Source: Escherichia coli
GTDB lineage: Bacteria; Pseudomonadota; Gammaproteobacteria; Enterobacterales; Enterobacteriaceae
Assembly (NCBI RefSeq): GCF_050920415.1
Contig: NZ_CP169309.1
DNA length: 64,000 nucleotides
Reading direction: 5' to 3' (one strand)
Shown here: positions 13,178 to 56,269 of the stretch, one piece after another
How the letters are laid out: every line of letters starts with the position of its first letter
How positions within the stretch are numbered: position 1 is the first letter of the stretch
The notes under the pieces: model-generated
The model's input: only the letters and a program-made list of their open reading frames with translations
Database searches by the model: none
What the model was told of the DNA's origin: nothing
Made by a program: the position numbers and the translations under genes

Positions 13178-16100
13178 TCAGCTGATACTGATACCTGCTG
13201 TGGATTTCTTCATCACCACAACCAGCAGATCGCTGATACTGGTTGTTGGTGTCCAGTTATTCGCTCCTGATGAAGATACGGTGAATGTCAGTGTCAGCGT
13301 CCCCTGTCCGGCAGGCATATCTATAACTGAGGAAAATACGCCCTGAGCATCCGTCGTGGACTGATTAAAAATCTCCTGACCATTGCGGGTCACTCTTAAC
13401 CGGCAGGTTGAATACCAGTATGACTGTTGGTTATTACTGTTGAAATTCTCATGCTTACCACCACGGAACAACACTGGCGGTATCATGACCTGCCGGTCAA
13501 ATTTCTGATCATCACTGATTCTTACCGTGATGGTGCCACTGGCATAACTGTTCGTGCGGGGGAAAGACTTGCTGACCGTTTTGACAATATCGCCTTCAAT
13601 CTGGTTGGCTGACAGTTTCCCCTTAATCTGACAGTTCTCATTTATCGTGACGTTGTTGAGCGTCCCGGAGTTCGCATTCACGTTACCGCTGATATCGGCA
13701 TTTTTAGCGGTCAGCTTTCCGTCCGGTGTCAGGGAAAATGCAGGAGGATTACCGCCGCTGGTAATGGTGGGAGCCGTCAGATATTTCAGGAACACTTCAT
13801 TCATGAATATCTGATCACCCTGACCAACAAACATCGGTTTTGTGTTGCCATTTGCAGGATTAATCATCGCAATCCTGTCTGCCGCCAGCAGCACCTGACT
13901 CTGCATGCCGTCGGGGGTGTTCTCAATACCGGCACCGATACCCGCAATATAAAGGCGACCATCCTGCATCTGCTGCAGTTTCACGGCCCACATACTGTTC
14001 AGGTTATTACTGGTGTCCGTCTGAACCTTTTGTATCTGCTGGATGGTGGCCTCCTGATCTCCCAGCTTCTGGTCCGTTGTCGTCATGATTTCACTGCTTT
14101 TTTGATCCACATACTGGCGAACCTGCGCTATCTGGCGTGCATTCTCCTCATTACTCTGACTGACCGTCTGCGTGAGTTCGCTGCTGACGTTATCCACTCT
14201 CTGGCTCACCTGTGATATACCCAGTGACAGCTCATCATTTTTTTTCGCAACCAGCTGTGTGAGGCTGTTTTCTGTCTCCCCGATTTTTTGGGTCACTTCA
14301 GCAATATCACTCTCTATCTGCTGATTGATCTCATCCTCCAGTTGCTCAACTTCACTGCGCAATGCCGAGGCATTAATACGATCGTTCAGCTCCTGCCCCA
14401 GCAGGGTGCTGTTTATTTTCCCTTCAAAAAAATTGAGATACACCTCAGCATCATTAACCGGCTGGCCAACAGCTTCCACAAACGCTGATTTACCGACGAT
14501 GTTCACACTGCGGATATAAAAGTAATAATCATGGCCCGGCCTGATATTAATACTGGCAGCTGTCCAGTACATCGCCGTACCAAGATAGCGGGCTGTGGTT
14601 TCAACCTGCCGGATATCCGTAATCTGATTTTCCGAGAACCAGAACTCAAACTGCACCGTCGGGTCATACACCGCAAGACGCGGGACTGCCGTTATCTGAA
14701 AATACCCCGGTATCAGTTCAATCTGTGACGGCGCTGCCGGGGCGTTAATCCGGAATGAGGTGGTGGCGGGTTCCCCCTGCTGGCCATAACTGTTTATCGC
14801 CCGCACCGTCAGGGTGTATTCCCCCAGTGGCAGACCACTGAAACGGTGCGCCGTGTCTGCAGTGATGGCGTTGGTCACCAGACGGCTGTCTTCACCGCTT
14901 CCACGGTTCAGGCGCAGACTGAAGCGCACACCCTTCACCACCCGCGGCGTGTCCCATTTCGCCTGCGCCAGATACTGGCCATCATCCGCGCTCACCTCCA
15001 CCGTGAGGTGCTGCACTGCCGGAGGAGTGACGCTGTTCAGGGAGCCGGACAGCGGCTCAAAGGTGGCCCCGTTATCCACAATGGCTTCTTTTTCCGGTAC
15101 GTGCTGCACCGCCGTGATGGCAAAGGTGCCGTCCGTGTTTTCCCGGATGGCCACACAGCGGAACAGGCGACGTCGAAGGCCGGGAATTTTCAGCCCCCAT
15201 ACCCCGTATGTCGCCACGCCATCAGGCAGGGCGCTGACCTGTATCCGGTCAGGAGCAGGCTGTGCCGTGATGTCCACACTCACCGGCTTACCGCTGCCAT
15301 TAATCAGGTTCACCGTGGCGGTACCGGTCTCCGGAAGCGTCACCTCCCGGTCCAGCGTCAGGGTGAGACTGGCGGCATCGATGTTCAGAATGCGCCCGCC
15401 GGTCAGGGTCCCGGCGTAGTCGTTATCACAGACTTCAATGATGTCACCGGGCGTGTGGCGCAGCCCCTGTGATCCGAGCGTGAAATCCACCGTCTGCGTT
15501 TCCAGCAGTTCGGTCTTTATCACCCACAGTCCGGCACGGTGAGCCTGACCGCGACTGGTACAGCCGAACGCATCCATCTTCAGCAGATTACGTCCGTAGC
15601 GCAGTATGGCTTCCGGGTCTTCCACCAGTTCAGTGGAGGTCTGCCAACCGTTCTGCGGGTCGGTGTAATTCACCTCCACCGCCGTGTGCCGGTCCTTCAG
15701 GGCGCTGAAGCTGTAGCGGAAGCCCACACCGTTATCATCCACCACCACATCGCTGTTGGTGTAGGGCCACACCACATCCGACGGGCGGTCCTGCACGAAC
15801 GTCAGCGTCTGCCCGTTCCATACCGGCATACAGCGCATCGCCGAGCAGAAATCACTGAGCACATCCCACGCCTTACGCTGTTGTGACAGGTACGCATTAA
15901 ACGTCATCCGCGGTTCGGTCCCCCCGAAGCCATCCGGCACCGGCTGGTCGCAGTACTGCGCAATGGCATACAGAGCCCATTTGTCCACGTCTGCGGCCCC
16001 CAGACGTTTCCCCATCCCGTAGCGCGGGTGGGTCAGCATGTCCCACAGGCACCAGGCCGGGTTGTTGCTCCAGGCCGGTTTCATACACCCGTCCCAGATA

Positions 16101-16873
16101 CCGCTGTAAGTACGTTTTTCCGGGTCATAGTTTGACGGCACCTGAATGATGCGACCGCGGATATGGTAGTTCACAGTTATCTGCTGACCGCCAAACTGCT
16201 CCGCATCCACCTGCAGGCCCACAATGGCCGTGTTCGGGTAGCACTGTTCCACATCGATGATTTCGGTGTATGACGACCACAGCGTTCTGTTCTGCAGCTG
16301 GTCCGTGGTGCTGTCAGCCGTCTCCCTGACCATCCGGATGTTAAAGGGGCGCTCAGGCAGATTATTCAGAATCACCGACGTCAGGTACTGCGAGGTGGTC
16401 TTACCGTTAATGGTGACATCCTTTTCCGTCACCCAGCTACCGTTACGCTGCAGCTGAATCAGCAGACGAACAGAAGCCGGATTACGGTCGCCCCTGGAGG
16501 TGGTCTCCACCAGTGACTGTACCCCGAAGGTGACCCGCAGGCGGTCAATGTTCGCGGACGTGATGGTACGCGTCACCGGCTTTGCCTTCGTCACTTCCAC
16601 ACCCAGCGCAGTTTCAGCCCCGGAGGACTCAAAACCTTCCGGCGGGGTCTGCTCCTGCTCCCCGGCGCGCCAGACGGCGGTCACACCGTGTATCACGGGA
16701 TTGCCGTCCGTGTCCGTCAGCGGGGTTTTATTCACCAGGATACTCTGCAGTCCCTTCACCGGGCCTTCTATCGGTCCCTCTCCAATCGCATCAATCACGC
16801 TCATCATCTGCGTGGACTTAAGATTGTCCTTTGCCTCAACTGGCGTGTGCGCCTTGCCGCCACCTTTTCCCAT
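13178..16873 (-). CDS. J: Tail tip / host specificity protein J
   Basis: Start [22 protein letters not shown] parallels lambda J; about 1231 aa; C-terminal region diverges from lambda. Confidence 0.9.
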
Positions 16874-17116
16874 TGCCTCACCCTTTACTGTGATAACTGT
16901 TACGCACAAAAGAACAGGCCCCCCGGGGATGCCTGTATCATAATGACTGAATAAAAATTCTGAGTTTATTCACATTTCCGGAAACTGACGGTTGCAGGAA
17001 TAACTCCACATTTTTACAGTTCTTCAGCCTGATAAAGGCAATTGGTCAAAACTTAACTAATCAAGGTGACTATTCATTTCTCCCGTAATATTCGTGAGTA
17101 TTACGGGAGATTTTTT

Positions 17117-17761
17117 TTATCCTCTGCCGATAACCACCACTTTCCCGTCACCACCTTCATCACGGGTACTGATGTCCTGGGATATCCGTCGGGAACCAAC
17201 CAGCATTTCACCGTATGGCACCGGCACCGGATTACCCTGAGCAATCATATTGTCCAGCGAGGAAAAGTAGGTGTTCTGTCTGCCGTTATCCGTTGTCCGG
17301 TAATCCGGTGTTTTTGCCTTCGGGGCCAGCATCTGTGCCACCCCACCCAGCGCCATTGCAGTCCCCATGGCAAACATAATATTGCTGGCTGCAATACCGA
17401 TACCCGGCATCCAGATAGCTGCCGCAGCCAGCGCAACGCCAAGAACCGCCTGAAACACACCCCCACTTTTGGCTCCTTCAGTCCGGGGTACCAGATGAAT
17501 GACATCCCCCGGGCTCAGTGGCTCATGCAGTCGGGTCGATATCTGGTCCGGCGCAGTATCCTCACCGGCAATACGTACCCGGTACCAGCCTTCGGTCATC
17601 TGACGGCGGAATCCCGGCAGCTGCAGAGACAGCGCCCGGATGGCTTCCGCTGCCGTGTTCACATACAGGCTGAGGCGGCGGCCAAATCGTTGTAAATCCC
17701 CGTGAAGGCAGATGCGGACCAGTGGCGGTGATGCCAGACAGAATGCGTTCGTCGTTGCCAT
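17117..17761 (-). CDS. I: Tail assembly protein I
   Basis: MATTNAFCLASPPLVRICLHGDLQRFGRRLSLYV... lambda I-like. Confidence 0.85.
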   Translation of the reverse strand: MATTNAFCLASPPLVRICLHGDLQRFGRRLSLYVNTAAEAIRALSLQLPGFRRQMTEGWYRVRIAGEDTAPDQISTRLHEPLSPGDVIHLVPRTEGAKSGGVFQAVLGVALAAAAIWMPGIGIAASNIMFAMGTAMALGGVAQMLAPKAKTPDYRTTDNGRQNTYFSSLDNMIAQGNPVPVPYGEMLVGSRRISQDISTRDEGGDGKVVVIGRG

Positions 17762-18402
17762 TTTTCAGAATACCTCTCCCGTTTACTCAGTTGTTCAGGT
17801 ATATGGTGAAGCAGTTCACCGTTACCGCAGTAAATGGCGGCGTGATTGGCCACCGATGCGCCAAAGCAGCACAGCAGGATATCGCCCGGCTGTGCAGAGG
17901 GCAGGGGCACCCGGTAAAAGCCCGTGGCCTCCATATTGTCCAGGTACAGGTTCTGGCCGTTGCGCCACCACTCATCCTCGCGCGCAAAATCCGGCAGCGT
18001 TATCCCTGCCAGATGGTATGCATCCCGGAACAGGGTGTAACAGTCCGTCACACCATGTTCAAAGCGCCGTCCGGTCAGGTGCGGCACACAGCGGAACTTG
18101 TGAATCGCCCCCCGGCAGACCAGCCACCAGGACAGGGCACTTTTCACCTGCAGCCGCCGGTCCGCCTCGCTCAGCCAGGGCAGACCACCGGGATGACTGT
18201 GGACCAGTGCCACAATCTCCCCCTGCATCTCTGCCCGCAGCCAGTCCTCCGGTGCAATACGAAAATATGCCTCAGGCTCTGCGGAGGTATTCACGCAGGG
18301 AAGATACCTGTCTCCCTCCGGCGTTCTCACCACGAAGCCGCACGACTCCGCAGGCGCACACCGCCGGGCATGCGCCAGAATCGCTGATTCAGTCTGTGTC
18401 AT
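17659..18402 (-). CDS. K: Tail assembly protein K (NlpC/P60-like)
   Basis: MTQTESAILAHARRCAPAESCGFVV... lambda K-like; start trimmed inside ORF 17659..18663. Confidence 0.85.
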   Translation of the reverse strand: MTQTESAILAHARRCAPAESCGFVVRTPEGDRYLPCVNTSAEPEAYFRIAPEDWLRAEMQGEIVALVHSHPGGLPWLSEADRRLQVKSALSWWLVCRGAIHKFRCVPHLTGRRFEHGVTDCYTLFRDAYHLAGITLPDFAREDEWWRNGQNLYLDNMEATGFYRVPLPSAQPGDILLCCFGASVANHAAIYCGNGELLHHIPEQLSKRERYSEKWQRRTHSVWHHRHWSASAFTGIYNDLAAASACM

Positions 18403-18412
18403 AAAATGGGAT

Positions 18413-19111
18413 TTACTGCGAAAGTTTATTAATGGAAAGGAAACCGCCAAAATTAGCGACCATGCCGCGCATCTCACACCCGCGCATGCACTTGCTGCAT
18501 TTGTCCTTACGGATATCTGTGGTGGGTTTATCGAACTCATCCGCCACTGCCGGACCGTTATACCCGCATTCATCTCCCCGGTAATCCCACATACAGGTAT
18601 TCGCCAGCATAATGCGACCGGGAAACAACGCCCCGTCCGTCTCGGTCGGAGTGGCCAGCACAAACGAGGCCGTCATGGCCGTCAGCTCTGACATCTGCTC
18701 CACCACCCAGCGGTCGCTCAGCTCCTGCTCCGGGTCCGCCTCCGGATTGCCCGCAACGAAATTCACCGCATCCAGAAAACGCGCATACACCCGGCGGCGG
18801 ACCACCGTTGCCCCCACCAGACTCTGCAGGTCCTCCGCCATCCCGGTGACAAGGCCAAACAGATTGGACACCGTCAGCGACGGTCTGGCACTGCTGCCCT
18901 TCCCGTTCATCTCAAAGCCGCTGCCGTCAATCGGGTATGCCTGATATTCCCGCCCCTGCCAGGTCACCGGCTCCCCTTTTTCATTCAGCTCATTGCAGAA
19001 AAAATACCGCTCACCGCCCTGCACCGTCAGGTCGATTTCCCAGAGTACCACCCGCGGTGACTGCTCTGATTTAACCGACTCGTTAAGACTTTCTTCGTGG
19101 ATATCCTGCAT
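18413..19111 (-). CDS. L: Minor tail protein L
   Basis: 232 aa, lambda L-like sequence and order. Confidence 0.85.
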   Translation of the reverse strand: MQDIHEESLNESVKSEQSPRVVLWEIDLTVQGGERYFFCNELNEKGEPVTWQGREYQAYPIDGSGFEMNGKGSSARPSLTVSNLFGLVTGMAEDLQSLVGATVVRRRVYARFLDAVNFVAGNPEADPEQELSDRWVVEQMSELTAMTASFVLATPTETDGALFPGRIMLANTCMWDYRGDECGYNGPAVADEFDKPTTDIRKDKCSKCMRGCEMRGMVANFGGFLSINKLSQ

Positions 19112-19440
19112 CAGTTCACCACCTGCTTAAACTCCGCGCTGAACTCAACGCGCAACATCCCGACCCGCGCAGACCACCCGGCACAGGTCACCTTTATCTG
19201 CCGGTATGCATAAGGCGGTGTCCACAGAAACGCCTTCCAGCCACCGTGCTCTGCCAGGAACGCCTCCAGATGCCGGGCCTCCTCCCGGGTCACGGAAAGC
19301 ATCACCCTGTATGTTTTCAGGTCAGCATTCAGTCCCGCCGCCATGCGCTGCGAATACCCGTCACCAAAACGCACTTCACGCACCGATGACTGCGAGTTCA
19401 CCTCCATATCCGGCTTCACTTTCCAGTGAAATGTTTTCAT
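19111..19440 (-). CDS. M: Minor tail protein M
   Basis: 109 aa MKTFHWKVKPDMEVNSQSSVREVRFGDGYSQR... Confidence 0.85.
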   Translation of the reverse strand: MKTFHWKVKPDMEVNSQSSVREVRFGDGYSQRMAAGLNADLKTYRVMLSVTREEARHLEAFLAEHGGWKAFLWTPPYAYRQIKVTCAGWSARVGMLRVEFSAEFKQVVN

Positions 19441-21947
19441 CGCCCGCTCCCTGATAACATACCGCCATCACGTAACTGCAGCCGGAGCTCATCCTGCGCC
19501 CCCTTACGGGCCATGTCATACACCGCTTTCATCAGCTGCGGCCCCGCCTGTCCGTTGATACCGTCGTTCTGAATCACCACGTGATTGTTCTGATTAAAAT
19601 TAATGCCTTCCACCCGCCGCATCTGCGCCGGACTTCCGGCACCACCCACATAACCACCTTCCGCATAGCCATGCATCAGGCGGTACAGGTTGCCGACGCC
19701 AATCCGGCTGGTCGCCTCCTTCGTGAAGACAAACTCCCCGCGGTGAACAATCCCCGCAGGCTCGTATTTGCCGCCAGTACCTGTAAAACCACCACCGGCA
19801 AACCCAATGGCACTACCGATACTCCCGACAATCCCCACCATTGCCTGCTTAAGCAGAATTTCTGTCATCATGGACAGCACGGAGCGGGTGAAGCTGCGCC
19901 AGTTCTGTTCACTGCCGGTCAGCATCGCCGCCATATTCTGCGCAATACCATCAAAGGTCTGCGTGGCCGCGCTTTTAACCTGCGAAAAACTGTCCATGGC
20001 ACTTTCCGCCCACTCACCCCAGCCGGATTTCAGCCCGACCATCCAGCTTCCACGAAGCTGCTCCTCCGCAGACCAGGTGTTCTTCAGTGCAGATGTGGCC
20101 TTCGCCAGCGCATCCGGATTATCACCGTACACGTCACGAAGGCGCTGCTCTTCCGACTCCCGCTGCGCCTGACGGTCGGTGAGGCCGCGGGCTTTTGCGC
20201 TGATGGCGGCCTGCTTCGCGCTCTGCTGCTGTTCAAACCGCGCCGCCTGCTGTGCCAGCTCATTCAGCCGTTTCTGGTGTTCAACCTTGTCGCCCAGGTC
20301 AGCCAGCTGGCGTTTGTACTCCAGCGTCTCTTTCTCATGGGCCAGCAGCGATTTTTCCTGCCCGGATAACTGCCGTTTCGTGGCGGCCTCTTTCAGGACC
20401 GCATACTGATTTTCCGCTTTCCATAAATCACGGCGCTGCTGGCTGATTTTCTCATTCGCACCGGCATGCTTCTCCAGCGTCCTGAGCTCAGTTTCAAGCG
20501 CCAGCATGGCTGCATGCGCCCGGTCTTCCTGACGCTCCCCGGCTGACACTTTGACACCTGACGACTTCGGTTTTTTCAGCGTCGATTCATAATCCTTTTT
20601 CGCCGCCGCCATCAGCGTGTTGTAATCCGCCTGCAGGATTTTCCCGTCTTTCAGGGCATTATTCAGCTCTTCCTGCCGGTCAGTATATTTCTCCAGTGGC
20701 GTCAGCAGGCGCTCATACGCCTTCTGCGCCTCTCCGGTATACTTCAGCTGTGACGCCTCACGCTCAGCCCGGTCCCTTGCCACCAGTTCACCGGCTTTTT
20801 CCATATCCGACTGCAGCGTGGCTGCCGCCAGCCCCAGACGGGCATTTTCACGGTCATCCCATGCACCCTGAAGGTTGGCACGGAAAGAGGAGGTCTTTCC
20901 CCGGCGCTGACTCCGGCTCTGGTACCACTGCCATTTTTTATCCGCCTCATCAAATGCCTTCTGCGCACTGGCGAGCATATCCGCTGAGGATTCAGGACGA
21001 CCGATATCCAGGATGGCATCCCACATCAATTTGAATGCCTTCCCGGTTTTATCCGCCCAGGTTTCCAGCGTCCCCATGTTTTCTTTCAGGCGACGGGTCT
21101 GCTCATCAAAGCCTTTTGTGGCGATATCGTTCGCCGCCTGTAAGGCCCCTGCCTCATCACCCGAACGCTGCAGCTGCGTAACATACGCAATCTGCTCTGC
21201 CGTCACGTTACGGAACTGGCGCGCCATAGCCATCAGTCCCGACGTCGGGTCGGTGGTCAGCTTTCCAAAAGCCTCTGCAACCTTGTCCACTTCCACACCG
21301 GATGCAGAAGCAAAACGCGCCACACTCTGGTTGATGGCATCAAACTGTTCACCACCACGCACACCGGCATTCACCAGGGCTGCCAGTGACTCACTCGCCT
21401 GGTTAAACGTCAGCCCTGCTGCCTGTCCGGCTCTGGAGAGCGTCAGCATGCGAGCGGCAGTCAGTCCGGACTGATTACCGGAAAGAACCAGGGTTTTATT
21501 AAACGCTGAAAGCATGGAATCCCCCTGGTACCAGGCATACGCCAGCGCACCTGTCGCCACCGCCAGCGAGGTGACCCCGACCATCGGCAGGGTGATCGCA
21601 CCGGCAAGCCCCCTGAACATGGGGAGCATCCCGCCGAAGGCGTCCTTCACCTGACCGCCCTGTTGCAGCAGAATAAGCCAGGGATTCTGACCACCGGCAA
21701 GCTGCGTGGCGATATCCGTAAACTGTGCAGGCAGGGTACGCATGGCCGCTTTATACTGCCCGACGGAAATCCCGGCTTTTTGTGCAGCCAGCGCCTGACG
21801 GCTCAGGCCCTGTTCAACAGCACTGGCGGTTTTTCTGGCGTCGGTATCCAGTCCTGAAAAATGACGCCTTACCCGGCTTATCTGCTCATCGAAACGGACC
21901 GCATCCAGACTCAGGTCAATAACAAGATCACCAACCGGCTGGGACAT
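19437..21947 (-). CDS. H: Tail tape measure protein H
   Basis: 836 aa, coiled-coil rich, lambda H-like. Confidence 0.9.
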   Translation of the reverse strand: MSQPVGDLVIDLSLDAVRFDEQISRVRRHFSGLDTDARKTASAVEQGLSRQALAAQKAGISVGQYKAAMRTLPAQFTDIATQLAGGQNPWLILLQQGGQVKDAFGGMLPMFRGLAGAITLPMVGVTSLAVATGALAYAWYQGDSMLSAFNKTLVLSGNQSGLTAARMLTLSRAGQAAGLTFNQASESLAALVNAGVRGGEQFDAINQSVARFASASGVEVDKVAEAFGKLTTDPTSGLMAMARQFRNVTAEQIAYVTQLQRSGDEAGALQAANDIATKGFDEQTRRLKENMGTLETWADKTGKAFKLMWDAILDIGRPESSADMLASAQKAFDEADKKWQWYQSRSQRRGKTSSFRANLQGAWDDRENARLGLAAATLQSDMEKAGELVARDRAEREASQLKYTGEAQKAYERLLTPLEKYTDRQEELNNALKDGKILQADYNTLMAAAKKDYESTLKKPKSSGVKVSAGERQEDRAHAAMLALETELRTLEKHAGANEKISQQRRDLWKAENQYAVLKEAATKRQLSGQEKSLLAHEKETLEYKRQLADLGDKVEHQKRLNELAQQAARFEQQQSAKQAAISAKARGLTDRQAQRESEEQRLRDVYGDNPDALAKATSALKNTWSAEEQLRGSWMVGLKSGWGEWAESAMDSFSQVKSAATQTFDGIAQNMAAMLTGSEQNWRSFTRSVLSMMTEILLKQAMVGIVGSIGSAIGFAGGGFTGTGGKYEPAGIVHRGEFVFTKEATSRIGVGNLYRLMHGYAEGGYVGGAGSPAQMRRVEGINFNQNNHVVIQNDGINGQAGPQLMKAVYDMARKGAQDELRLQLRDGGMLSGSGR

Positions 21948-50956: not shown

Positions 50957-51781
50957 ATGTCTCAGAACTTAGACGCAACCGCAATTAATCAAATCCATGC
51001 CCTTATTTCTGCTCAGGGTGTTAATGAAATTATCAGTAAGATTGGTGCCGATGCTGTGGCATTGCCTGAGAATTTCCGCATTCATGATCTGGAAAAATTT
51101 AATTTAAATCGCTTCCGTTTCCGTGGTGCGCTTTCCACTGCCAGCATCGATGACTTTACCCGTTATTCTAAAGATCTTGCAGATGAAGGCACCCGCTGCT
51201 TTATCGATGCTGATAATATGCGTGCCGTCAGTGTGCTTAACCTGGGTACTATTGATGAACCAGGTCACGCAGATAACACCGCCACTCTCAAACTGAAAAA
51301 GACAGCACCGTTCTCTGCCCTGTTGTATGTTAACGGCGAGCGTAACTCCCAGAAGTCACTGGCAGAATGGATTGAAGACTGGGCCGACTATCTTGTGGGC
51401 TTTGATGCTAATGGTGACACCATTCAGGCAACAAAAGCGGCTGCGGCGGTCCGTAAAATCACGATTGAAGCAAACCAGACCGCTGATTTTGAAGATAATG
51501 ACTTCAGCGGCAAACGCTCCCTGATGGAGTCTGTCGAAGCGAAGACCAAAGACATTATGCCAGTGGCATTTGAATTTAAATGCGTTCCGTTTGAAGGTCT
51601 GAAAGAACGTCCGTTTAAATTACGCCTCAGCATTATCACTGGCGATCGTCCTGTACTGGTTCTGCGCATTATTCAGCTGGAAGCGGTGCAGGAAGATATG
51701 GCTAACGAATTTCGTGATCTGCTTGTTGAGAAATTCAAGGACAGCAAAGTAGAAACCTTTATTGGTACTTTCACCGCCTGA
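50957..51781 (+). CDS. YfdQ-like (DUF2303) protein (274 aa)
   Basis: [26 protein letters not shown]...; length and order match CPS-53 YfdQ. Confidence 0.6.
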
Positions 51782-51908
51782 TTTCATTACTGCAAATGCC
51801 CCTGCGGGGGCATTTATGGAAACGTAATTTACTCAATAATCGCCGGATGGTGAGGGATTCTTTTTACCAGAATTCAGCGCGGTGCAGCGCATATACGTGG
51901 AGAACAAA

Positions 51909-52445
51909 ATGTCATTTATCAAAACTTTTTCTGGGAAGCATTTTTATTATGACAGGATAAATAAAGACGACATCGATATTAACGATATCGCGGTTTCCCT
52001 TTCAAATATCTGTCGCTTTGCCGGTCATCTTTCGCACTTCTACAGCGTCGCCCAACATGCGGTTCTTTGCAGCCAGCTGGTGCCGCAGGAATTTGCTTTT
52101 GAAGCGTTAATGCATGATGCAACAGAAGCGTATTGCCAGGACATTCCCGCACCACTGAAACGCCTTCTTCCTGACTATAAACGGATGGAAGAAAAAATAG
52201 ACGCCGTAATCCGTGAGAAATACGGGTTACCCCCGGTTATGAGTACACCCGTGAAATATGCCGATCTCATCATGCTGGCAACCGAACGCCGCGATCTCGG
52301 GCTTGATGATGGCTCTTTCTGGCCTGTACTGGAAGGCATCCCGGCAACAGAGATGTTCAACGTGATTCCACTGGCACCGGGCCATGCCTACGGGATGTTT
52401 ATGGAACGTTTTAACGATTTATCGGAGTTACGCAAATGCGCATGA
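51909..52445 (+). CDS. YfdR-like HD-domain phosphohydrolase
   Basis: MSFIKTFSGKHFYYD... with HD motif (HSVAQHAVLCSQL...HDATEAY). Confidence 0.65.
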   Translation: MSFIKTFSGKHFYYDRINKDDIDINDIAVSLSNICRFAGHLSHFYSVAQHAVLCSQLVPQEFAFEALMHDATEAYCQDIPAPLKRLLPDYKRMEEKIDAVIREKYGLPPVMSTPVKYADLIMLATERRDLGLDDGSFWPVLEGIPATEMFNVIPLAPGHAYGMFMERFNDLSELRKCA

Positions 52446-52798
52446 ATGTTTTCGAAATGGAAGGGTTTCTTCGCGGGAAATGTGTACCGCGAGATCTGAA
52501 AGTGAACGAAACAAATGCTGAGTACCTGGTACGTAAATTCGACGCGCTTGAAGCTAAATGTGCGGCACTGGAAAACAAAATAATACCAGTGTCAACTGAA
52601 CTGCCACCAGCAAATGAAAGTGTTCTGTTATTTGATGCTAATGGAGAAGGCTGGCTGATTGGCTGGCGTTCTCTCTGGTACACCTAGGGACAAAAAGAAA
52701 CCGGAGAATGGCAGTGGACATTTCAGGTCGGGGACCTTGAAAACGTCAATATCACTCACTGGGCAGTAGTGCCAAAAGCACCGGAGGCTGGAGCATAA
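52436..52798 (+). pseudogene. DUF551-like gene interrupted by an in-frame amber codon at 52685-52687
   Basis: ORF 52436..52687 ends at TAG; the same frame continues GQKETGEWQWTFQVGDLENVNITHWAVVPKAPEAGA to a TAA overlapping the next ATG. Confidence 0.45.
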
Positions 52799-53577
52799 TG
52801 ACCACATTTACCAATAAAGAACTGATTAAAGAAATCAAAGAACGAATCAGCAGCCTAGAGGTTCGAGACGATATTGAGCGCCGTGCTTATGAAATTGCTC
52901 TGGCATCGCTAGAAGAGGAGCCGGTGGCGTGGCTGCATTCAGAAAATGGCTTAGGTATTCCGGCAATAACGAGGAGTAAAAACATTGCTGACAGTTGGTT
53001 ATCAAAGGGCTGGTATGTTCAGCCGCTATATATAGCCAAGCCAGTGCCGGTAGTGCCAGATGCTCGTCCGTCTTTAAATAATGGCATAGTCGGTTTTGAT
53101 GAAGGCTGGAACGCCTGCCGCGCCGCCATGCTTCATGGTGCCGAACCTGTAAACCAAACTTACAAGTCACCACACACGCAGTTTGAACAAGTTGCTGACC
53201 TCTACGAAATGCAATTTGATGACGGTCGCACTTGTGCCTTTCACACTGATGCGCAAAAGGCTGCGCAATGGCTTCAGGTGTGCGACGGAAACAGGGTTCA
53301 GGAATACGTTAAGCTGGAACGGCTGCAGAACGCGCTGTCTGGCAACTCTCCGGTAAGTCCAGGTGGTTGGATAAGCTGTAGTGAGCGAATGCCGAATGAT
53401 AAACAGTATGTTTGGTGTTGGGGGAAGTCTTACGGCTGGACTGAGTGCGATACCTTCGAAGGGTATTACGATTGGTCGAGAAACAAATGGTGGGCAGTTA
53501 CTGACAATGAGGAAGAACAGGCATCGAAAGTAACCCACTGGATGCCACTACCGGAGCCGCCGCAGGAGGTGAAGTAA
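52798..53577 (+). CDS. DUF551 domain protein
   Basis: C-terminal ...QYVWCWGKSYGWTECDTFEGYYDWSRNKWWAVTDNEEEQASKVTHWMPLPEPP. Confidence 0.55.
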   Translation: MTTFTNKELIKEIKERISSLEVRDDIERRAYEIALASLEEEPVAWLHSENGLGIPAITRSKNIADSWLSKGWYVQPLYIAKPVPVVPDARPSLNNGIVGFDEGWNACRAAMLHGAEPVNQTYKSPHTQFEQVADLYEMQFDDGRTCAFHTDAQKAAQWLQVCDGNRVQEYVKLERLQNALSGNSPVSPGGWISCSERMPNDKQYVWCWGKSYGWTECDTFEGYYDWSRNKWWAVTDNEEEQASKVTHWMPLPEPPQEVK

Positions 53578-53771
53578 TGAACAACTTAATGACAACTAAA
53601 CAAGTCGCCGATTTCTGTGGTGTTTCAGTATCGACAGTTCTTCGCTGGAACAGCGTAAACAGGAGAACTGGTCAGAAATACAGGCCTGACTTTCCAGATC
53701 CTGATATTAAATCCTGCCCAAATAAATGGGCATCACACAAGATTTACAGATTTGCGGGAGTGATTGAGTAA
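53577..53771 (+). CDS. xis: Excisionase / AlpA-family HTH protein
   Basis: MNNLMTTKQVADFCGVSVSTVLRWN...; last gene of the early-left operon, near int. Confidence 0.7.
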   Translation: MNNLMTTKQVADFCGVSVSTVLRWNSVNRRTGQKYRPDFPDPDIKSCPNKWASHKIYRFAGVIE

Positions 53772-54053
53772 TATGTATTAGCTTAGATGTGAGCTGACAC
53801 ATCTATGCTTAGATGCCAAACCTAATCTGAGCGTCCACTCTTTACCAAGAGCGGACGTTACCAATGACCATATGACATGAATCGATAAGATCAAAACATT
53901 ATCGCCAAGAAATGTCATACCATTGATACAAATAAAATTGATTACCCCCTTACTCTTGTTGAAAAGTTAGTCGTAGAGTACCTATCGCAATGTAATCAGC
54001 TTTAATCATCTGAAAATTACTCCTTAAAAATTAGCTTTTATATACTGAACAAA

Positions 54054-54773
54054 TTAAATCTCTGTTTCTTTTCCTGCTCGGCTCAACCAATACTCCATTG
54101 TTTGAGTATGAATCTTTTCAGCGTATATTTTATCAATTAATTTATCTTGTTTTTCTTTAATGACTTCACGCAGTGAATCATATAACATAAAAAAACGTTC
54201 ATCATCTTCCTCATTATTACCGTAATTTATTTGATTGAGCTCTGAAAAAATATGATAGTACCTTTTTTTCTTGGTCCCCGGCAATATTAAAACCAAGCCA
54301 CATTGATCATATTCGAATTCACCTTTATGGGCAGCAAAGTTATGTCTAACATTCATAATAGAATCATGTAAATCTCTATATTTTTCTGGCACATGCTTTC
54401 TCTGCAATGTGAATCGACGCCCTTTCGCCTCTGTAAAACACTTACCGTAAGTAACAACTTTTGATATAAACAAAGACTTTAATATTAGATTCTTTTCTAA
54501 ATCCGGATAAATAAAGTGTTGTTCTTTATTAATGTTATTACAAATATTTTTTATTATATTCTCCCAACCAATAACATTCCGAAGATCTTTATCAAGCAAC
54601 TGTAAGGCCACATATTGTTCTACAAAGCGGCCTTTTAAAGGTATTCGTGGTAATATTACACCTTTCTGCTTATAAATTCTTTCTATCGTATTATCTGGAT
54701 ATTGGATCTTCCTTATTTCTATTCCGTCTTCTTCTGATACCCTTACTAATGGTTCATTTTTTAACTTTGACAT
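54054..54773 (-). CDS. Hypothetical protein (239 aa), strongly AT-rich, between int and xis
   Basis: Clean ORF co-directional with int; no family recognised; contains RHNFAAH (an R-x5-H pattern). Confidence 0.5.
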   Translation of the reverse strand: MSKLKNEPLVRVSEEDGIEIRKIQYPDNTIERIYKQKGVILPRIPLKGRFVEQYVALQLLDKDLRNVIGWENIIKNICNNINKEQHFIYPDLEKNLILKSLFISKVVTYGKCFTEAKGRRFTLQRKHVPEKYRDLHDSIMNVRHNFAAHKGEFEYDQCGLVLILPGTKKKRYYHIFSELNQINYGNNEEDDERFFMLYDSLREVIKEKQDKLIDKIYAEKIHTQTMEYWLSRAGKETEI

Positions 54774-55012
54774 GTTAACCCTCTTAAATAAAAAACTAAC
54801 TTTATCCAGATAGTGTCCGTTAAGAAGTTTTCGTTACAACTAAGTTTCTAGGTAAATCATGAATCGACCTATAGTATCAAAAACATTTGGTGGTAAACAT
54901 CTGCATTTATCAAATGGCAGGAGCGATTTAGGGGCATAGGGATAGTGATGATATCGATACCCGCCCCCTCTTATGTCAACACAATGGCGTAAACTTAACG
55001 CTCACATCTCGC

Positions 55013-56269
55013 TCAAAGTGTGCTAGGAGATTTGGTTATGTTCAGGTGATACAAACCGTCAGTTTGACAATTAACAATCGATTCAACCCTCTTCCACCAT
55101 GCCAGGTAAGCTTTACGCTGTTCTTCTAGATAATCACTCTTATCATAAACTTGCCATACCCCTGGCAGCTTATGACCAAGCATAATTTCTGCGATATGAG
55201 GCGCAGTAAGATCAGAAAAATTTGTTCGAGCTGTACGTCTCAAGTCATGAAGAGACCAATGAGGGAATTGATATCCTAAACACCGCCATGCGTACTGCAT
55301 TAAATTGTAAGGCAGCGACTGCAATGATGTCCGACCAACGGGTTCCCTGCTTCCTTCCTTAGTAAAAAGCATATCGGAACCATTGTTCATAGAGATAGCG
55401 TACTTTATAAGCTCTTCAACCGGTTCAATAATGGGCCGCTTTAGCGGTTCGCCTGTTATCTCCCCAGTCTTATGTCGTTCTGGTGGTACAGTCCATACTT
55501 TATTAATGAAATCAAAATCGTCCACCCGGGCGGTAATTAGCTCTGAACTACGGCAACCAAAATGCAGCAATAGTTTAATGAAGGCCCGGTATTTAGGAAC
55601 CATTCGAGAACCATCGATCGCAGCATAAAGGATTTTAATTTCATCATGTGTCAGAAACCGTTTCTTCTGACCTTTACGGATATCCATATCTTTACCCGTG
55701 ATATCCGACAGCGGGCGAGTTTCAATGAGCTTTCTCTTATACGCCCAGACATGGGCCTGCTTTGCGTTAATTAGCAATCGGTCTGCTATTGCTGGAGTCT
55801 TAGTGCTAAGAGGCTCCAGGACTTCTAACCAATCATGCAATGTAGCTGCATCGTGAGGGATATTCCCGATTTTAGAGAACAGGTGCAGCTCAAACGAGCG
55901 AAGTATCTGTTCAGAACCTTTTTTATTTTTTACACAATATGCTTCATACCAAGCACGGATCACAGACTCTACCGTCATGGCTTCAGTAGCTTTTCGTTTT
56001 TCAGCCTGCTTGACCAATCGTGGATTACGGTTTGACTCGAGTTCACCACGAAGACGGATAACTTCTTCTCTGGCCTCTTTTAATCCAGTTGCCGGGTAAG
56101 TTCCGATATCAAGACGCTCACCTTTCCCTGCCCATTGATAACGATATTGGAACACTACGCGACCTTTCGGTGATACTCTGACAGACAGACCATCACGATC
56201 GGATTTAACCAAAACCTTATCACGTTCCTTTCCAACGACTGAACGCAACCACGCATCAGACAGCGCCAT
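55013..56269 (-). CDS. int: Tyrosine site-specific integrase
   Basis: 418 aa; C-terminal catalytic region with ...HDLRRT... and ...MLGH...; adjacent to the att core. Confidence 0.9.
   Translation of the reverse strand: MALSDAWLRSVVGKERDKVLVKSDRDGLSVRVSPKGRVVFQYRYQWAGKGERLDIGTYPATGLKEAREEVIRLRGELESNRNPRLVKQAEKRKATEAMTVESVIRAWYEAYCVKNKKGSEQILRSFELHLFSKIGNIPHDAATLHDWLEVLEPLSTKTPAIADRLLINAKQAHVWAYKRKLIETRPLSDITGKDMDIRKGQKKRFLTHDEIKILYAAIDGSRMVPKYRAFIKLLLHFGCRSSELITARVDDFDFINKVWTVPPERHKTGEITGEPLKRPIIEPVEELIKYAISMNNGSDMLFTKEGSREPVGRTSLQSLPYNLMQYAWRCLGYQFPHWSLHDLRRTARTNFSDLTAPHIAEIMLGHKLPGVWQVYDKSDYLEEQRKAYLAWWKRVESIVNCQTDGLYHLNITKSPSTL

What the first reader, a model, noticed from the sequence alone, without database searches (positions are those of the whole stretch)
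52436..52798. DUF551-like gene with an in-frame amber codon
The ORF stops at TAG (52685-52687) yet the same frame continues for 36 codons through a conserved-looking tryptophan-rich DUF551 C-terminus to a stop overlapping the next gene start. It is either a recent nonsense pseudogene or is expressed by stop-codon readthrough.
Basis: seen in the sequence. Interest (0 to 1): 0.35.

Follow-up and report, generated by a model that had tools for sequence, protein, structure and literature searches.

The report
Amber-truncated prophage yfdS gene, mutational hotspot
A small prophage gene (yfdS) has been cut short by a single G-to-A change that turns a tryptophan codon into a stop; this is an ordinary recent pseudogene, notable only because the same change has arisen repeatedly at a methylated, mutation-prone DNA site.

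Summary
Window 52436-52798 is a 120-codon yfdS-family (DUF551-like) gene of a lambdoid prophage. Codon 84 is TAG (52685-52687), and 36 in-frame codons follow, up to a TAA that overlaps the next ATG.

Relatives settle the interpretation. About 2,300 complete E. coli genomes carry the gene, and all but 8 have TGG (Trp) at codon 84. No phage record has the TAG. Distant homologues always have a sense codon (W/F/M) there. RefSeq already annotates the identical sequence as a pseudogene ("internal stop"). No amber-suppressor tRNA lies in the window.

The change is a single G-to-A at 52686. That G pairs with the Dcm-methylated cytosine of CCTGG, the classic 5-methylcytosine deamination route to amber codons. 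TAG occurs on at least 5 distinct yfdS haplotypes; the four found in complete genomes each have an otherwise identical TGG twin. It is the only one of 18 possible transition-to-stop sites that is a Dcm target, and the only one seen on several backgrounds.

A nanopore methylation artefact is excluded. The truncated protein appears on dozens of draft and short contigs, including an old Broad genome.

Verdict: a real, recent, recurrent nonsense pseudogene, not programmed readthrough. Low interest.

The parts
52436..52687 (+). Truncated yfdS-family ORF: 83 codons plus the amber stop. Its ATG overlaps the end of yfdR by 10 nt.
   Evidence: PGAP 'internal stop' pseudogene on the identical sequence in NZ_CP169399.1; intact 120-aa 'YfdS family phage-associated protein' WP_063815049.1 in TUM9975
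52685..52687 (+). Premature TAG (codon 84). It is TGG (Trp) in relatives, changed by a single G-to-A transition at 52686.
   Evidence: alignments; 99-mer and 55-mer population searches
52683..52687 (.). Former Dcm site: CCTGG in intact alleles, CCTAG here. The G at 52686 pairs with the methylated inner cytosine of the minus-strand CCAGG.
   Evidence: Dcm/VSP chemistry as described in PMC2715241, PMC3527292, PMC13250602
52688..52798 (+). The 36 untranslated former codons of yfdS plus its TAA stop. They encode the second half of the DUF551-like domain, including the ITHWA.P..PE motif.
   Evidence: low-confidence model places codon 84 in the third of five beta-strands
51909..52445 (+). yfdR (HD-domain 5'-deoxynucleotidase family), the upstream gene, translationally overlapped with yfdS.
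   Evidence: PGAP annotation of the identical sequence; weak Pfam YfbR-like/HD hits
50957..51781 (+). yfdQ (DUF2303 family), part of the yfdP-yfdQ-yfdR-yfdS early-region module.
52798..53577 (+). Downstream 259-aa ORF with a clear C-terminal DUF551 domain. Its ATG overlaps the yfdS TAA. GGAGG (52783-52787) and GGAG (52790-52793) could serve as its own ribosome-binding site once coupling to yfdS is lost.
   Evidence: (63 bits to DUF551)

Best explanation
Window 52436-52798 is the yfdS gene of a lambdoid (CPS-53-like) prophage early region, in the order yfdP-yfdQ-yfdR-yfdS. It has been inactivated by one G-to-A transition at 52686 that turns Trp84 (TGG) into amber (TAG).

The mutated G pairs with the inner cytosine of a Dcm site (CCTGG/CCAGG). 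That cytosine is 5-methylated in E. coli. When it deaminates to thymine and very-short-patch repair misses the T:G mismatch, the result is exactly CCTGG to CCTAG. This makes the position a mutational hotspot, so the same stop has arisen independently on several yfdS haplotypes and persists in some clones.

Translation ends after 83 residues. The product keeps the N-terminal helix but loses the second half of the DUF551-like domain, so the gene is most likely null. The next gene has its own Shine-Dalgarno-like sequence and probably still initiates without coupling.

Shown here: the substitution, its Dcm context, its rarity, its presence on multiple backgrounds, and its reality in independent assemblies. 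Inferred: methylation of the site in these hosts, deamination as the cause, loss of function, and continued expression of the downstream gene.
For: Single-base difference:
- TUM9975 is identical to the window across 51698-55066 except at 52686.

Population:
- 2,300 of 5,426 complete E. coli genomes carry the 99-mer region.
- Only 8 carry the TAG 55-mer, and no phage record does.
- PGAP annotates it as a pseudogene with 'internal stop'.

Recurrence:
- The 8 genomes fall into 4 haplotypes and prophage contexts, differing at 5-18 positions in the gene.
- Each haplotype has a 100% identical TGG twin in other genomes.
- Over 5 kb of flank, the TAG copy and its twin differ at only 2-4 positions for two of the groups.
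- A fifth TAG background is Logan DRR387203.

Hotspot:
- Of the 18 transition-type nonsense changes possible in the gene, only this one hits a Dcm-methylated position.
- In a scan of all 58 possible single-base nonsense changes, it is the most frequent and the only one shown to lie on several backgrounds. The others were seen in 1-4 genomes.
- Rough binomial P is about 3e-4.

Reality of the allele:
- The exact 83-aa product is recorded on 23 contigs for the window haplotype, 57 for the ET haplotype and 14 for the CH haplotype. These include old Broad genomes, ~100-kb draft contigs and SRA-run assemblies.
- Six of those loci are 100% identical to the window over 2.9-6.3 kb, and a seventh differs at 1 of 6,252 bases.

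Literature:
- CCWGG is an established G:C-to-A:T hotspot through 5-meC deamination, countered by Vsr (PMC2715241, PMC3527292, PMC13250602).
Against: - Dcm activity and methylation of this site in the host were not tested.
- The count of 'independent' origins rests on haplotype backgrounds. Short gene-conversion patches (under about 110-130 nt, between flanking SNPs at gene positions 207/222 and 334) could in principle spread one original TAG.
- The control I wanted was swamped by common polymorphisms and gave no count. It asked how often the synonymous C-to-T occurs on the other strand of the same Dcm site (52684).
- Selection for loss of yfdS could add to the recurrence and cannot be separated from mutation bias with these data.
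Confidence: 0.85

Rival explanations
1. Programmed or suppressor-mediated readthrough: the amber codon is decoded (by a suppressor tRNA or context-driven readthrough), so a full-length 120-aa YfdS is still made and the gene is functional.
For: The downstream 36 codons are still open and identical to functional alleles. The allele persists in clones sampled many times.
Against: - The stop is not conserved: 8 of about 2,300 complete genomes, 0 of 177 matching phage records, and every distant homologue has W, F or M at this position.
- An intact downstream frame is expected anyway for a very young mutation. TUM9975 has no other difference in 3.37 kb.
- The window's tRNAs are Arg-tct, Met/Ile-cat and three Leu-cag. 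The degenerate tRNA-like element at 38380-38460 has no CTA anticodon.
- One TAG background (L019) already carries a non-synonymous V-to-F change downstream of the stop.
Confidence: 0.04
2. Sequencing or assembly artefact: nanopore basecallers mis-call Dcm-methylated CCWGG motifs, so the TAG could be a systematic consensus error that recurs in independent long-read assemblies.
For: - ONT consensus errors concentrate in CCAGG/CCTGG motifs (PMC6591954).
- The closest complete genome, MFDS1022581, shows homopolymer indels that frameshift its portal and lysis genes.
- ET490/670/979 also carry frameshifted neighbouring genes.
Against: - The window has 130 intact CCWGG sites, and 52686 is the only Dcm-target change relative to TUM9975.
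- No other Dcm site differs in the 5-kb loci of the other TAG genomes.
- The window lacks MFDS's homopolymer frameshifts yet keeps the TAG.
- The exact truncated protein is recorded from accessions of the EGB/EGE series, including E. coli M863. From my own knowledge, these are Broad Institute deposits that predate nanopore sequencing.
- It is also found on ~100-kb draft contigs and on Logan assemblies of SRA runs.
- CH427 (Pakistan) and two Canadian isolates share the TAG plus nested SNPs, as expected for clonal inheritance.
Confidence: 0.02
3. Adaptive loss or single origin: truncating YfdS is favoured by selection, for example by relieving a cost of the YfdQRS module, which inhibits DnaA-dependent initiation when over-supplied. 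Alternatively, one old TAG allele has been moved between prophages by recombination. In either case, mutation bias would not be the reason it is seen on several backgrounds.
For: - Several TAG clones have been sampled repeatedly (23, 57 and 14 contigs).
- Lambdoid prophages are highly mosaic; the same yfdR-yfdS module sits next to different neighbours and integrases.
- Other disruptions exist near the same spot, such as the frameshift variant P0026.
Against: - If loss were selected, many kinds of inactivating change should be common. The other 57 possible nonsense changes are seen in 0-4 genomes each.
- The allele frequency is only about 0.35%.
- A transferred patch would have to be shorter than about 110-130 nt to leave each haplotype otherwise identical to its TGG twin.
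- Deleting yfdQRST had no effect on initiation or hydroxyurea resistance in K-12, and yfdS is redundant with yfdT for the multicopy effect (PMC4776307).
Confidence: 0.09

Closest known systems
yfdS of the E. coli K-12 cryptic prophage CPS-53 (KpLE1); YfdS family / DUF551
   Same: Same gene family and same yfdP-yfdQ-yfdR-yfdS synteny. PGAP names the intact twin 'YfdS family phage-associated protein'. The length is 120 codons with a DUF551-like C-terminal half. In K-12, yfdS deletion gives H2O2 sensitivity, and yfdQRS in multicopy inhibits replication initiation (PMC4776307).
   Different: This copy carries an amber codon at position 84 and is predicted to give an 83-aa fragment. It lies in a different, apparently more complete lambdoid prophage integrated beside yjjG, and is followed by a 259-aa DUF551 gene instead of yfdT.
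Amber-mutation hotspots at Dcm sites (5-methylcytosine deamination; the lacI amber hotspots of Coulondre and Miller, 1978, cited from my own knowledge)
   Same: The change is a G:C-to-A:T transition at the methylated position of CCWGG and creates TAG. It recurs independently, and it is the substrate class that Vsr very-short-patch repair exists to correct (PMC2715241, PMC13250602).
   Different: The lacI cases were CAG-to-TAG on the coding strand, found in laboratory selections. Here the methylated C is on the template strand, giving TGG-to-TAG, and the evidence is population-genomic. Neither methylation nor dcm/vsr dependence was measured.
Prophage pseudogenisation (domestication or decay of resident prophages)
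   Same: It is an accessory early-region gene, not needed for lysogeny or lytic growth, knocked out by a point mutation in a resident prophage. PGAP flags other genes of the same prophage as frameshifted in the near-identical MFDS1022581 copy.
   Different: The window's portal and lysis genes are intact, so the prophage as a whole is not obviously defective.
Programmed stop-codon readthrough genes (such as the Q-beta coat-protein extension A1; from my own knowledge)
   Same: An in-frame stop is followed by an open, homologous coding frame.
   Different: In programmed cases the stop is conserved across relatives. Here it is a rare derived allele of a sense codon.

Membership tests
YfdS family / DUF551 | Full-length near-identity to annotated YfdS-family proteins | tested here: met
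   The restored 120-aa sequence equals TUM9975 WP_063815049.1, 'YfdS family phage-associated protein'. It is 98% identical to P0001, a cluster of 1,100 members.
YfdS family / DUF551 | Pfam DUF551 (PF04448) match at or above the gathering score | tested here: not met
   20 bits against a cut-off of 22, E = 0.0013, over residues 50-117. No NCBIfam model matched. Some close homologues do carry precomputed PF04448 hits, and sources name them DUF551 proteins.
YfdS family / DUF551 | Conserved C-terminal aromatic motif (G-W-x-x-G-W ... T-H-W-x-x-x-P-x-x-P) | tested here: met
   G72, W73, G76, W77, T107, H108, W109, P113 and P116 are invariant or nearly so in 19 sequences. The THW..P..P part lies after the stop in the window.
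YfdS family / DUF551 | Synteny yfdP-yfdQ-yfdR-yfdS with overlapping start and stop codons | tested here: met
YfdS family / DUF551 | Uninterrupted reading frame, i.e. a functional member | tested here: not met
   TAG at codon 84; PGAP pseudogene 'internal stop'
Programmed stop-codon readthrough or suppression | The stop codon is conserved at the same position in homologues | tested here: not met
   8 of about 2,300 complete genomes, 0 phage records, and a sense codon in all distant homologues
Programmed stop-codon readthrough or suppression | A cognate suppressor tRNA or a readthrough-promoting element is present | tested here: inconclusive
   No CUA-anticodon tRNA in the 64-kb window. The rest of the genome could not be examined, and no reporter data exist.
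Programmed stop-codon readthrough or suppression | Purifying selection on the frame downstream of the stop | tested here: inconclusive
   TAG alleles are too young to tell, with 0 extra changes in most. One background has a V-to-F change plus two synonymous changes downstream.
Dcm (5-methylcytosine) deamination hotspot mutation | The mutated base is the inner C of CCWGG, or the G paired with it | tested here: met
   Intact alleles read ACA CCTGG GG. The G at 52686 pairs with the inner C of the minus-strand CCAGG.
Dcm (5-methylcytosine) deamination hotspot mutation | The change is a G:C-to-A:T transition | tested here: met
   G to A
Dcm (5-methylcytosine) deamination hotspot mutation | Recurs independently and exceeds comparable non-Dcm sites | tested here: met
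   At least 5 backgrounds; the four in complete genomes have TGG twins. It is the only one of 18 transition-nonsense sites that is a Dcm target and the only one on several backgrounds. Rough P about 3e-4. Independence is inferred from haplotypes.
Dcm (5-methylcytosine) deamination hotspot mutation | The host encodes active Dcm and the site is methylated; the rate depends on dcm and vsr | not testable with these tools
   dcm lies outside the window and no methylome or genetics is available. General literature only.
Nanopore methylation-motif consensus error | The variant is confined to long-read-only assemblies | tested here: not met
   The exact truncated protein occurs in old Broad accessions, fragmented drafts and Logan SRA assemblies. 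Their sequencing platforms are inferred, not read from metadata.
Nanopore methylation-motif consensus error | Many Dcm motifs are affected in the same assembly | tested here: not met
   130 intact CCWGG in the window and 1 changed. No other Dcm-site differences in the 5-kb loci.

The most novel reading that the evidence does not exclude
The amber allele is not merely tolerated but favoured. On this reading, truncating YfdS, or producing the 83-aa helical fragment with a trace of readthrough product, would change how the YfdQ-YfdR-YfdS module acts on DnaA and replication initiation or on oxidative-stress tolerance. The Dcm site would then act as a built-in, recurrently used off-switch for the gene in lysogens.
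Probability: 0.05. Interest if true: 0.4.

Novelty: already known. Interest (0 to 1): 0.12.

Why it matters
It matters little for biology at large. The region is a correctly recognisable pseudogene that RefSeq already flags, and the mechanism that best explains it, 5-methylcytosine deamination at a Dcm site creating an amber codon, has been textbook knowledge for decades.

There are two small points of value. First, it is a clean natural-population example of that hotspot: the same TGG-to-TAG change on at least five haplotypes of one prophage gene. Second, it is a reminder for annotation and variant calling. A recurrent identical 'mutation' at CCWGG can be either a true hotspot or a nanopore methylation artefact, and the two can be told apart by looking for the allele in short-read assemblies.

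Tried and rejected
1. First multi-block search. I concatenated 55-mers to count all transition-type nonsense alleles. It failed because block junctions created exact 28-mers that matched wild-type genomes. I redesigned it with 49-mers, random spacers and a computational check against six haplotypes. That version worked.

2. Control for hotspot versus selection. I searched 14 synonymous C-to-T or G-to-A changes in the conserved part of the gene, including the other strand of the same Dcm site at 52684, plus the second Dcm site. The result was swamped: 852 genomes matched because several synonymous variants are common polymorphisms. No count could be read for 52684. It only showed that the synonymous CCTGG-to-CCTAG change at the second Dcm site occurs together with three different marker variants.

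3. Assumption that the window is MFDS1022581. This was rejected. The window differs by 7 positions in 25-64 kb and diverges in the tail-gene region at 15-24 kb.

4. L022 from the contig look-up is a contig end after codon 83, not a TAG allele, and was discarded.

5. NCBIfam scan found no model for YfdS.

6. PDB sequence search gave only spurious coiled-coil peptide hits with E > 0.2.

7. AlphaFold model from a 19-sequence alignment is low-confidence (pLDDT 58). I used it only for a rough secondary-structure statement and made no fold search.

8. PGAP's 'tRNA-OTHER' in the prophage was checked as a possible suppressor and rejected: it has no CTA anticodon, and neither Rfam nor ARAGORN calls it.

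Full report
**1. What is in the sequence**

Window 52436-52798 (+) reads ATG, then 82 more sense codons, then TAG at 52685-52687. A further 36 sense codons follow, ending at TAA 52796-52798. That TAA shares its last A with the ATG of the next ORF, 52798-53577. The ATG at 52436 overlaps the end of the upstream gene, whose TGA is at 52443-52445.

A 36-codon open run would occur by chance about 18% of the time. The observation becomes meaningful only through homology.

**2. Identity of the gene**

Megablast of 52300-52900 finds the region in 3,143 of 5,426 complete E. coli genomes and in 177 phage records. The phage hits are lambdoid, Stx-converting and Sf-type phages.

RefSeq annotation of the best hits places the ORF in the module yfdP-yfdQ-yfdR-yfdS, which is the early-region cluster known from the K-12 cryptic prophage CPS-53. 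In strain TUM9975 the gene is an intact 120-aa 'YfdS family phage-associated protein'.

The restored protein matches Pfam DUF551 just below threshold: 20 bits against 22, over residues 50-117. The downstream 259-aa ORF has an unambiguous DUF551 domain at 63 bits. NCBIfam has no model for either protein.

In an alignment with distant homologues, the G-W-x-x-G-W and T-H-W-x-x-x-P-x-x-P positions are nearly invariant. The second motif lies after the stop. A low-confidence AlphaFold model (pLDDT 58) suggests a long helix at residues 25-48 followed by five short strands, with codon 84 in the third strand.

The literature says the following about K-12 yfdS (PMC4776307; PMC10834534):
- It carries DUF551.
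- Its deletion gives H2O2 sensitivity.
- yfdQ and yfdR, together with either yfdS or yfdT in multicopy, inhibit DnaA-dependent initiation.
- Deleting the whole cluster has no effect on initiation.

**3. The stop is a derived single-base change**

An alignment with TUM9975, 26561 and F8704-2 shows TGG (Trp) where the window has TAG. TUM9975 differs from the window at that base only. It has no other difference from 51698 to 55066, a tract of 3.37 kb.

A 99-mer centred on the site is present in 2,300 complete genomes. I then used a 55-mer centred on the A. Every 28-base megablast seed from that query must contain the A, so only TAG alleles can match. It matches 8 genomes and no phage record. Eight is a lower bound, because alleles with nearby SNPs on both sides would be missed.

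Across 5,756 database homologues, the diverse set I aligned always has a sense residue (W, F or M) at this column and a conserved downstream frame. None ends at residue 83 by design. It supports 'nonsense mutation of a sense codon'.

**4. Why the same stop appears more than once**

The 8 genomes fall into four groups, with different yfdS haplotypes (5-18 differences in the gene) and different neighbours and integration sites:
- the window type, MFDS1022581
- three frog isolates, ET490, ET670 and ET979
- CH427 plus two Canadian carbapenemase-producer isolates
- PRO_A-1462

For each haplotype I restored TGG and searched again. Every one has 100% identical TGG twins in other genomes (and TUM9975 for the window). 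Over 5 kb of flank, CH427 and its twin D5 differ at 3 positions, and PRO_A and its twin at 2. The ET genomes match their twin perfectly for 1.75 kb apart from the stop. A fifth TAG background turned up in a Logan assembly, DRR387203 (L019).

The intact sequence is ACA-CCTGG-GG, so it contains a Dcm site. Dcm methylates the inner cytosine on both strands. The G at 52686 pairs with the methylated C of the minus-strand CCAGG. Deamination of 5-methylcytosine to thymine, if it escapes Vsr very-short-patch repair, gives CCTGG to CCTAG, which is the observed change. CCWGG is an accepted G:C-to-A:T hotspot (PMC2715241, PMC3527292, PMC13250602). The lacI amber hotspots are the classic precedent, cited from my own knowledge.

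Of the 18 nonsense changes reachable by a transition in this gene, only this one hits a Dcm-methylated position. I then scanned all 58 possible single-base nonsense changes on five haplotypes:

| Change | Genomes |
|---|---|
| W84 TAG | 8 (four backgrounds) |
| G119 TGA (removes only two residues) | 4 |
| K22 TAA (in a gene annotated 'Eae protein') | 3 |
| W81 TGA | 1 |
| W109 TGA | 1 |
| Q93 TAG | 1 |

A rough binomial test for four or more of seven transition events falling on one pre-specified site out of 18 gives P of about 3e-4. The number of independent events is inferred from haplotypes, so this is indicative only.

**5. Artefact check**

Nanopore basecallers make systematic consensus errors at CCAGG/CCTGG (PMC6591954). 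MFDS1022581 and the ET genomes also carry frameshifted neighbouring genes. So a recurring artefact was a serious rival. Four results reject it:
- The window is not MFDS1022581. It differs at 7 positions in 25-64 kb, and two of these are homopolymer indels that break the portal and lysis genes in MFDS but not in the window. The window nevertheless has the TAG.
- The window has 130 intact CCWGG sites. Position 52686 is the only Dcm-target change relative to TUM9975. No other Dcm site differs in the other TAG loci.
- The exact 83-aa product is in the protein collection on 23 contigs (window haplotype), 57 (ET haplotype) and 14 (CH haplotype). Sources include accessions of the EGB/EGE series such as E. 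coli M863, fragmented drafts with ~100-kb contigs, and Logan assemblies of SRA runs. Six such loci are 100% identical to the window over 2.9-6.3 kb. That these are short-read or pre-nanopore data is my inference from accession series and contig sizes.
- The CH427 group shows nested SNPs, two shared by all three isolates and one more shared by the two Canadian isolates, as expected for inheritance within a clone.

**6. Readthrough**

Nothing supports it. The window's tRNAs are Arg-tct, Met/Ile-cat and three Leu-cag. PGAP's 'tRNA-OTHER' at 38380-38460 (-) is a degenerate tRNA-like sequence with no CTA anticodon, and neither ARAGORN nor Rfam calls it.

The intact downstream frame is explained by the youth of the mutation. 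Basal near-cognate decoding of UAG in wild-type E. coli is low, from my own knowledge, so a trace of full-length protein cannot be excluded. It would not make this a programmed event. The rest of the host genome could not be examined for suppressors.

**7. Consequences (inferred)**

The 83-aa product lacks the second half of the DUF551-like domain and is probably non-functional. Ribosomes now stop 111 nt before the next ATG, so termination-reinitiation coupling is lost. However, GGAGG (52783-52787) and GGAG (52790-52793) could support independent initiation of the 259-aa gene. Because yfdS is an accessory gene, loss is likely near-neutral. That fits an allele frequency of about 0.35% among complete genomes that carry the gene.

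**8. What remains open**

The relative roles of mutation bias and selection are not resolved. My control using the synonymous change on the other strand of the same Dcm site was swamped by common polymorphisms. That search did show that the synonymous CCTGG-to-CCTAG change at the gene's second Dcm site occurs with three different marker combinations. This is compatible with a hotspot but is also compatible with an old polymorphism. Dcm activity in the host, methylation of the site, and dcm/vsr dependence were not testable here.

**9. Verdict**

This is a real, recent and recurrent nonsense pseudogene of a prophage yfdS gene, already flagged as such in RefSeq. It is best explained by 5-methylcytosine deamination at a Dcm site. 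It is not programmed readthrough and not an artefact. Interest is low.

Noticed in passing
window 52798-53577 (+): The gene after yfdS is an intact 259-aa ORF with a strong C-terminal DUF551 domain (63 bits). PGAP splits the identical sequence into two 'incomplete, partial in the middle of a contig' pseudogene fragments in MFDS1022581 and TUM9975. Other gene callers annotate the full 259-aa product. This looks like an annotation artefact for a mosaic Ea22/DUF551-type gene.
   Followed up: partly
window 38380-38460 (-), between tRNA-Arg(tct) 38290-38366 and tRNA-Met/Ile(cat) 38469-38543: PGAP calls a 'tRNA-OTHER' here in the near-identical genome. The sequence has a good acceptor stem and T-arm but an aberrant anticodon region. 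ARAGORN and the Rfam tRNA model do not call it, and it has no CTA anticodon.
   Followed up: partly
window 28973 and 34519, compared with NZ_CP169399.1: The closest complete genome, MFDS1022581, differs from the window by single-base homopolymer deletions (GGGG to GGG, TTTTTT to TTTTT). These frameshift its portal and lysis genes, while the window has both intact. They are probably long-read assembly errors in that record. The window is therefore a different, closely related isolate.
   Followed up: partly
window 15000-24000: The tail-gene region (the gpJ side) diverges from MFDS1022581 by about 2% locally, with a cluster of about 156 differences near 20 kb. The remaining 40 kb is almost identical, which suggests a recombination tract in the tail and host-range genes.
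   Followed up: no
window 54054-54773 (-), between the xis-like gene (53577-53771) and the integrase (55013-56269): This slot holds a 239-aa hypothetical protein here. In related prophages the same slot holds an AIPR-family protein (strain 26561) or a SIR2_2-domain protein (Logan DRR387203), and WWCOL-256 has an 'anti-phage dCTP deaminase' annotated within the matched stretch. It looks like a variable cargo or defence hotspot next to the integrase.
   Followed up: no
window 52525-52529 (second Dcm site of yfdS, gene positions 90-94): The synonymous CCTGG-to-CCTAG change (CTG to CTA) at this second Dcm site is present in other genomes together with three different marker variants (gene positions 279, 300 and 318). 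In the CH427 haplotype the site is destroyed by TAC to TAT.
   Followed up: partly
protein P0026 (110 aa) and P0086 (94 aa), corresponding to window about 52680-52690: These are database variants of yfdS with a frameshift at the same spot. P0026 reads LWYT|GDKKKPENG..., consistent with loss of the T of CCTGG. They could be real indels or sequencing errors at the methylated motif; this was not resolved.
   Followed up: no
query block for K22 AAA-to-TAA (window about 52499); hits in NZ_CP016546.1, NZ_CP045457.1 (ET12567) and NZ_CP101274.1: Three genomes match the K22-to-TAA test block, but in a gene annotated 'Eae protein'. This may be a different mosaic gene sharing the 5' part of yfdS rather than a nonsense allele.
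   Followed up: no
window 44392-45044 (-) and 36103-36743 (-): PGAP marks a phage N-6-adenine methyltransferase and a hypothetical gene as frameshifted in MFDS1022581. The window is identical there, so these two disruptions are shared and may be genuine decay of the prophage.
   Followed up: partly
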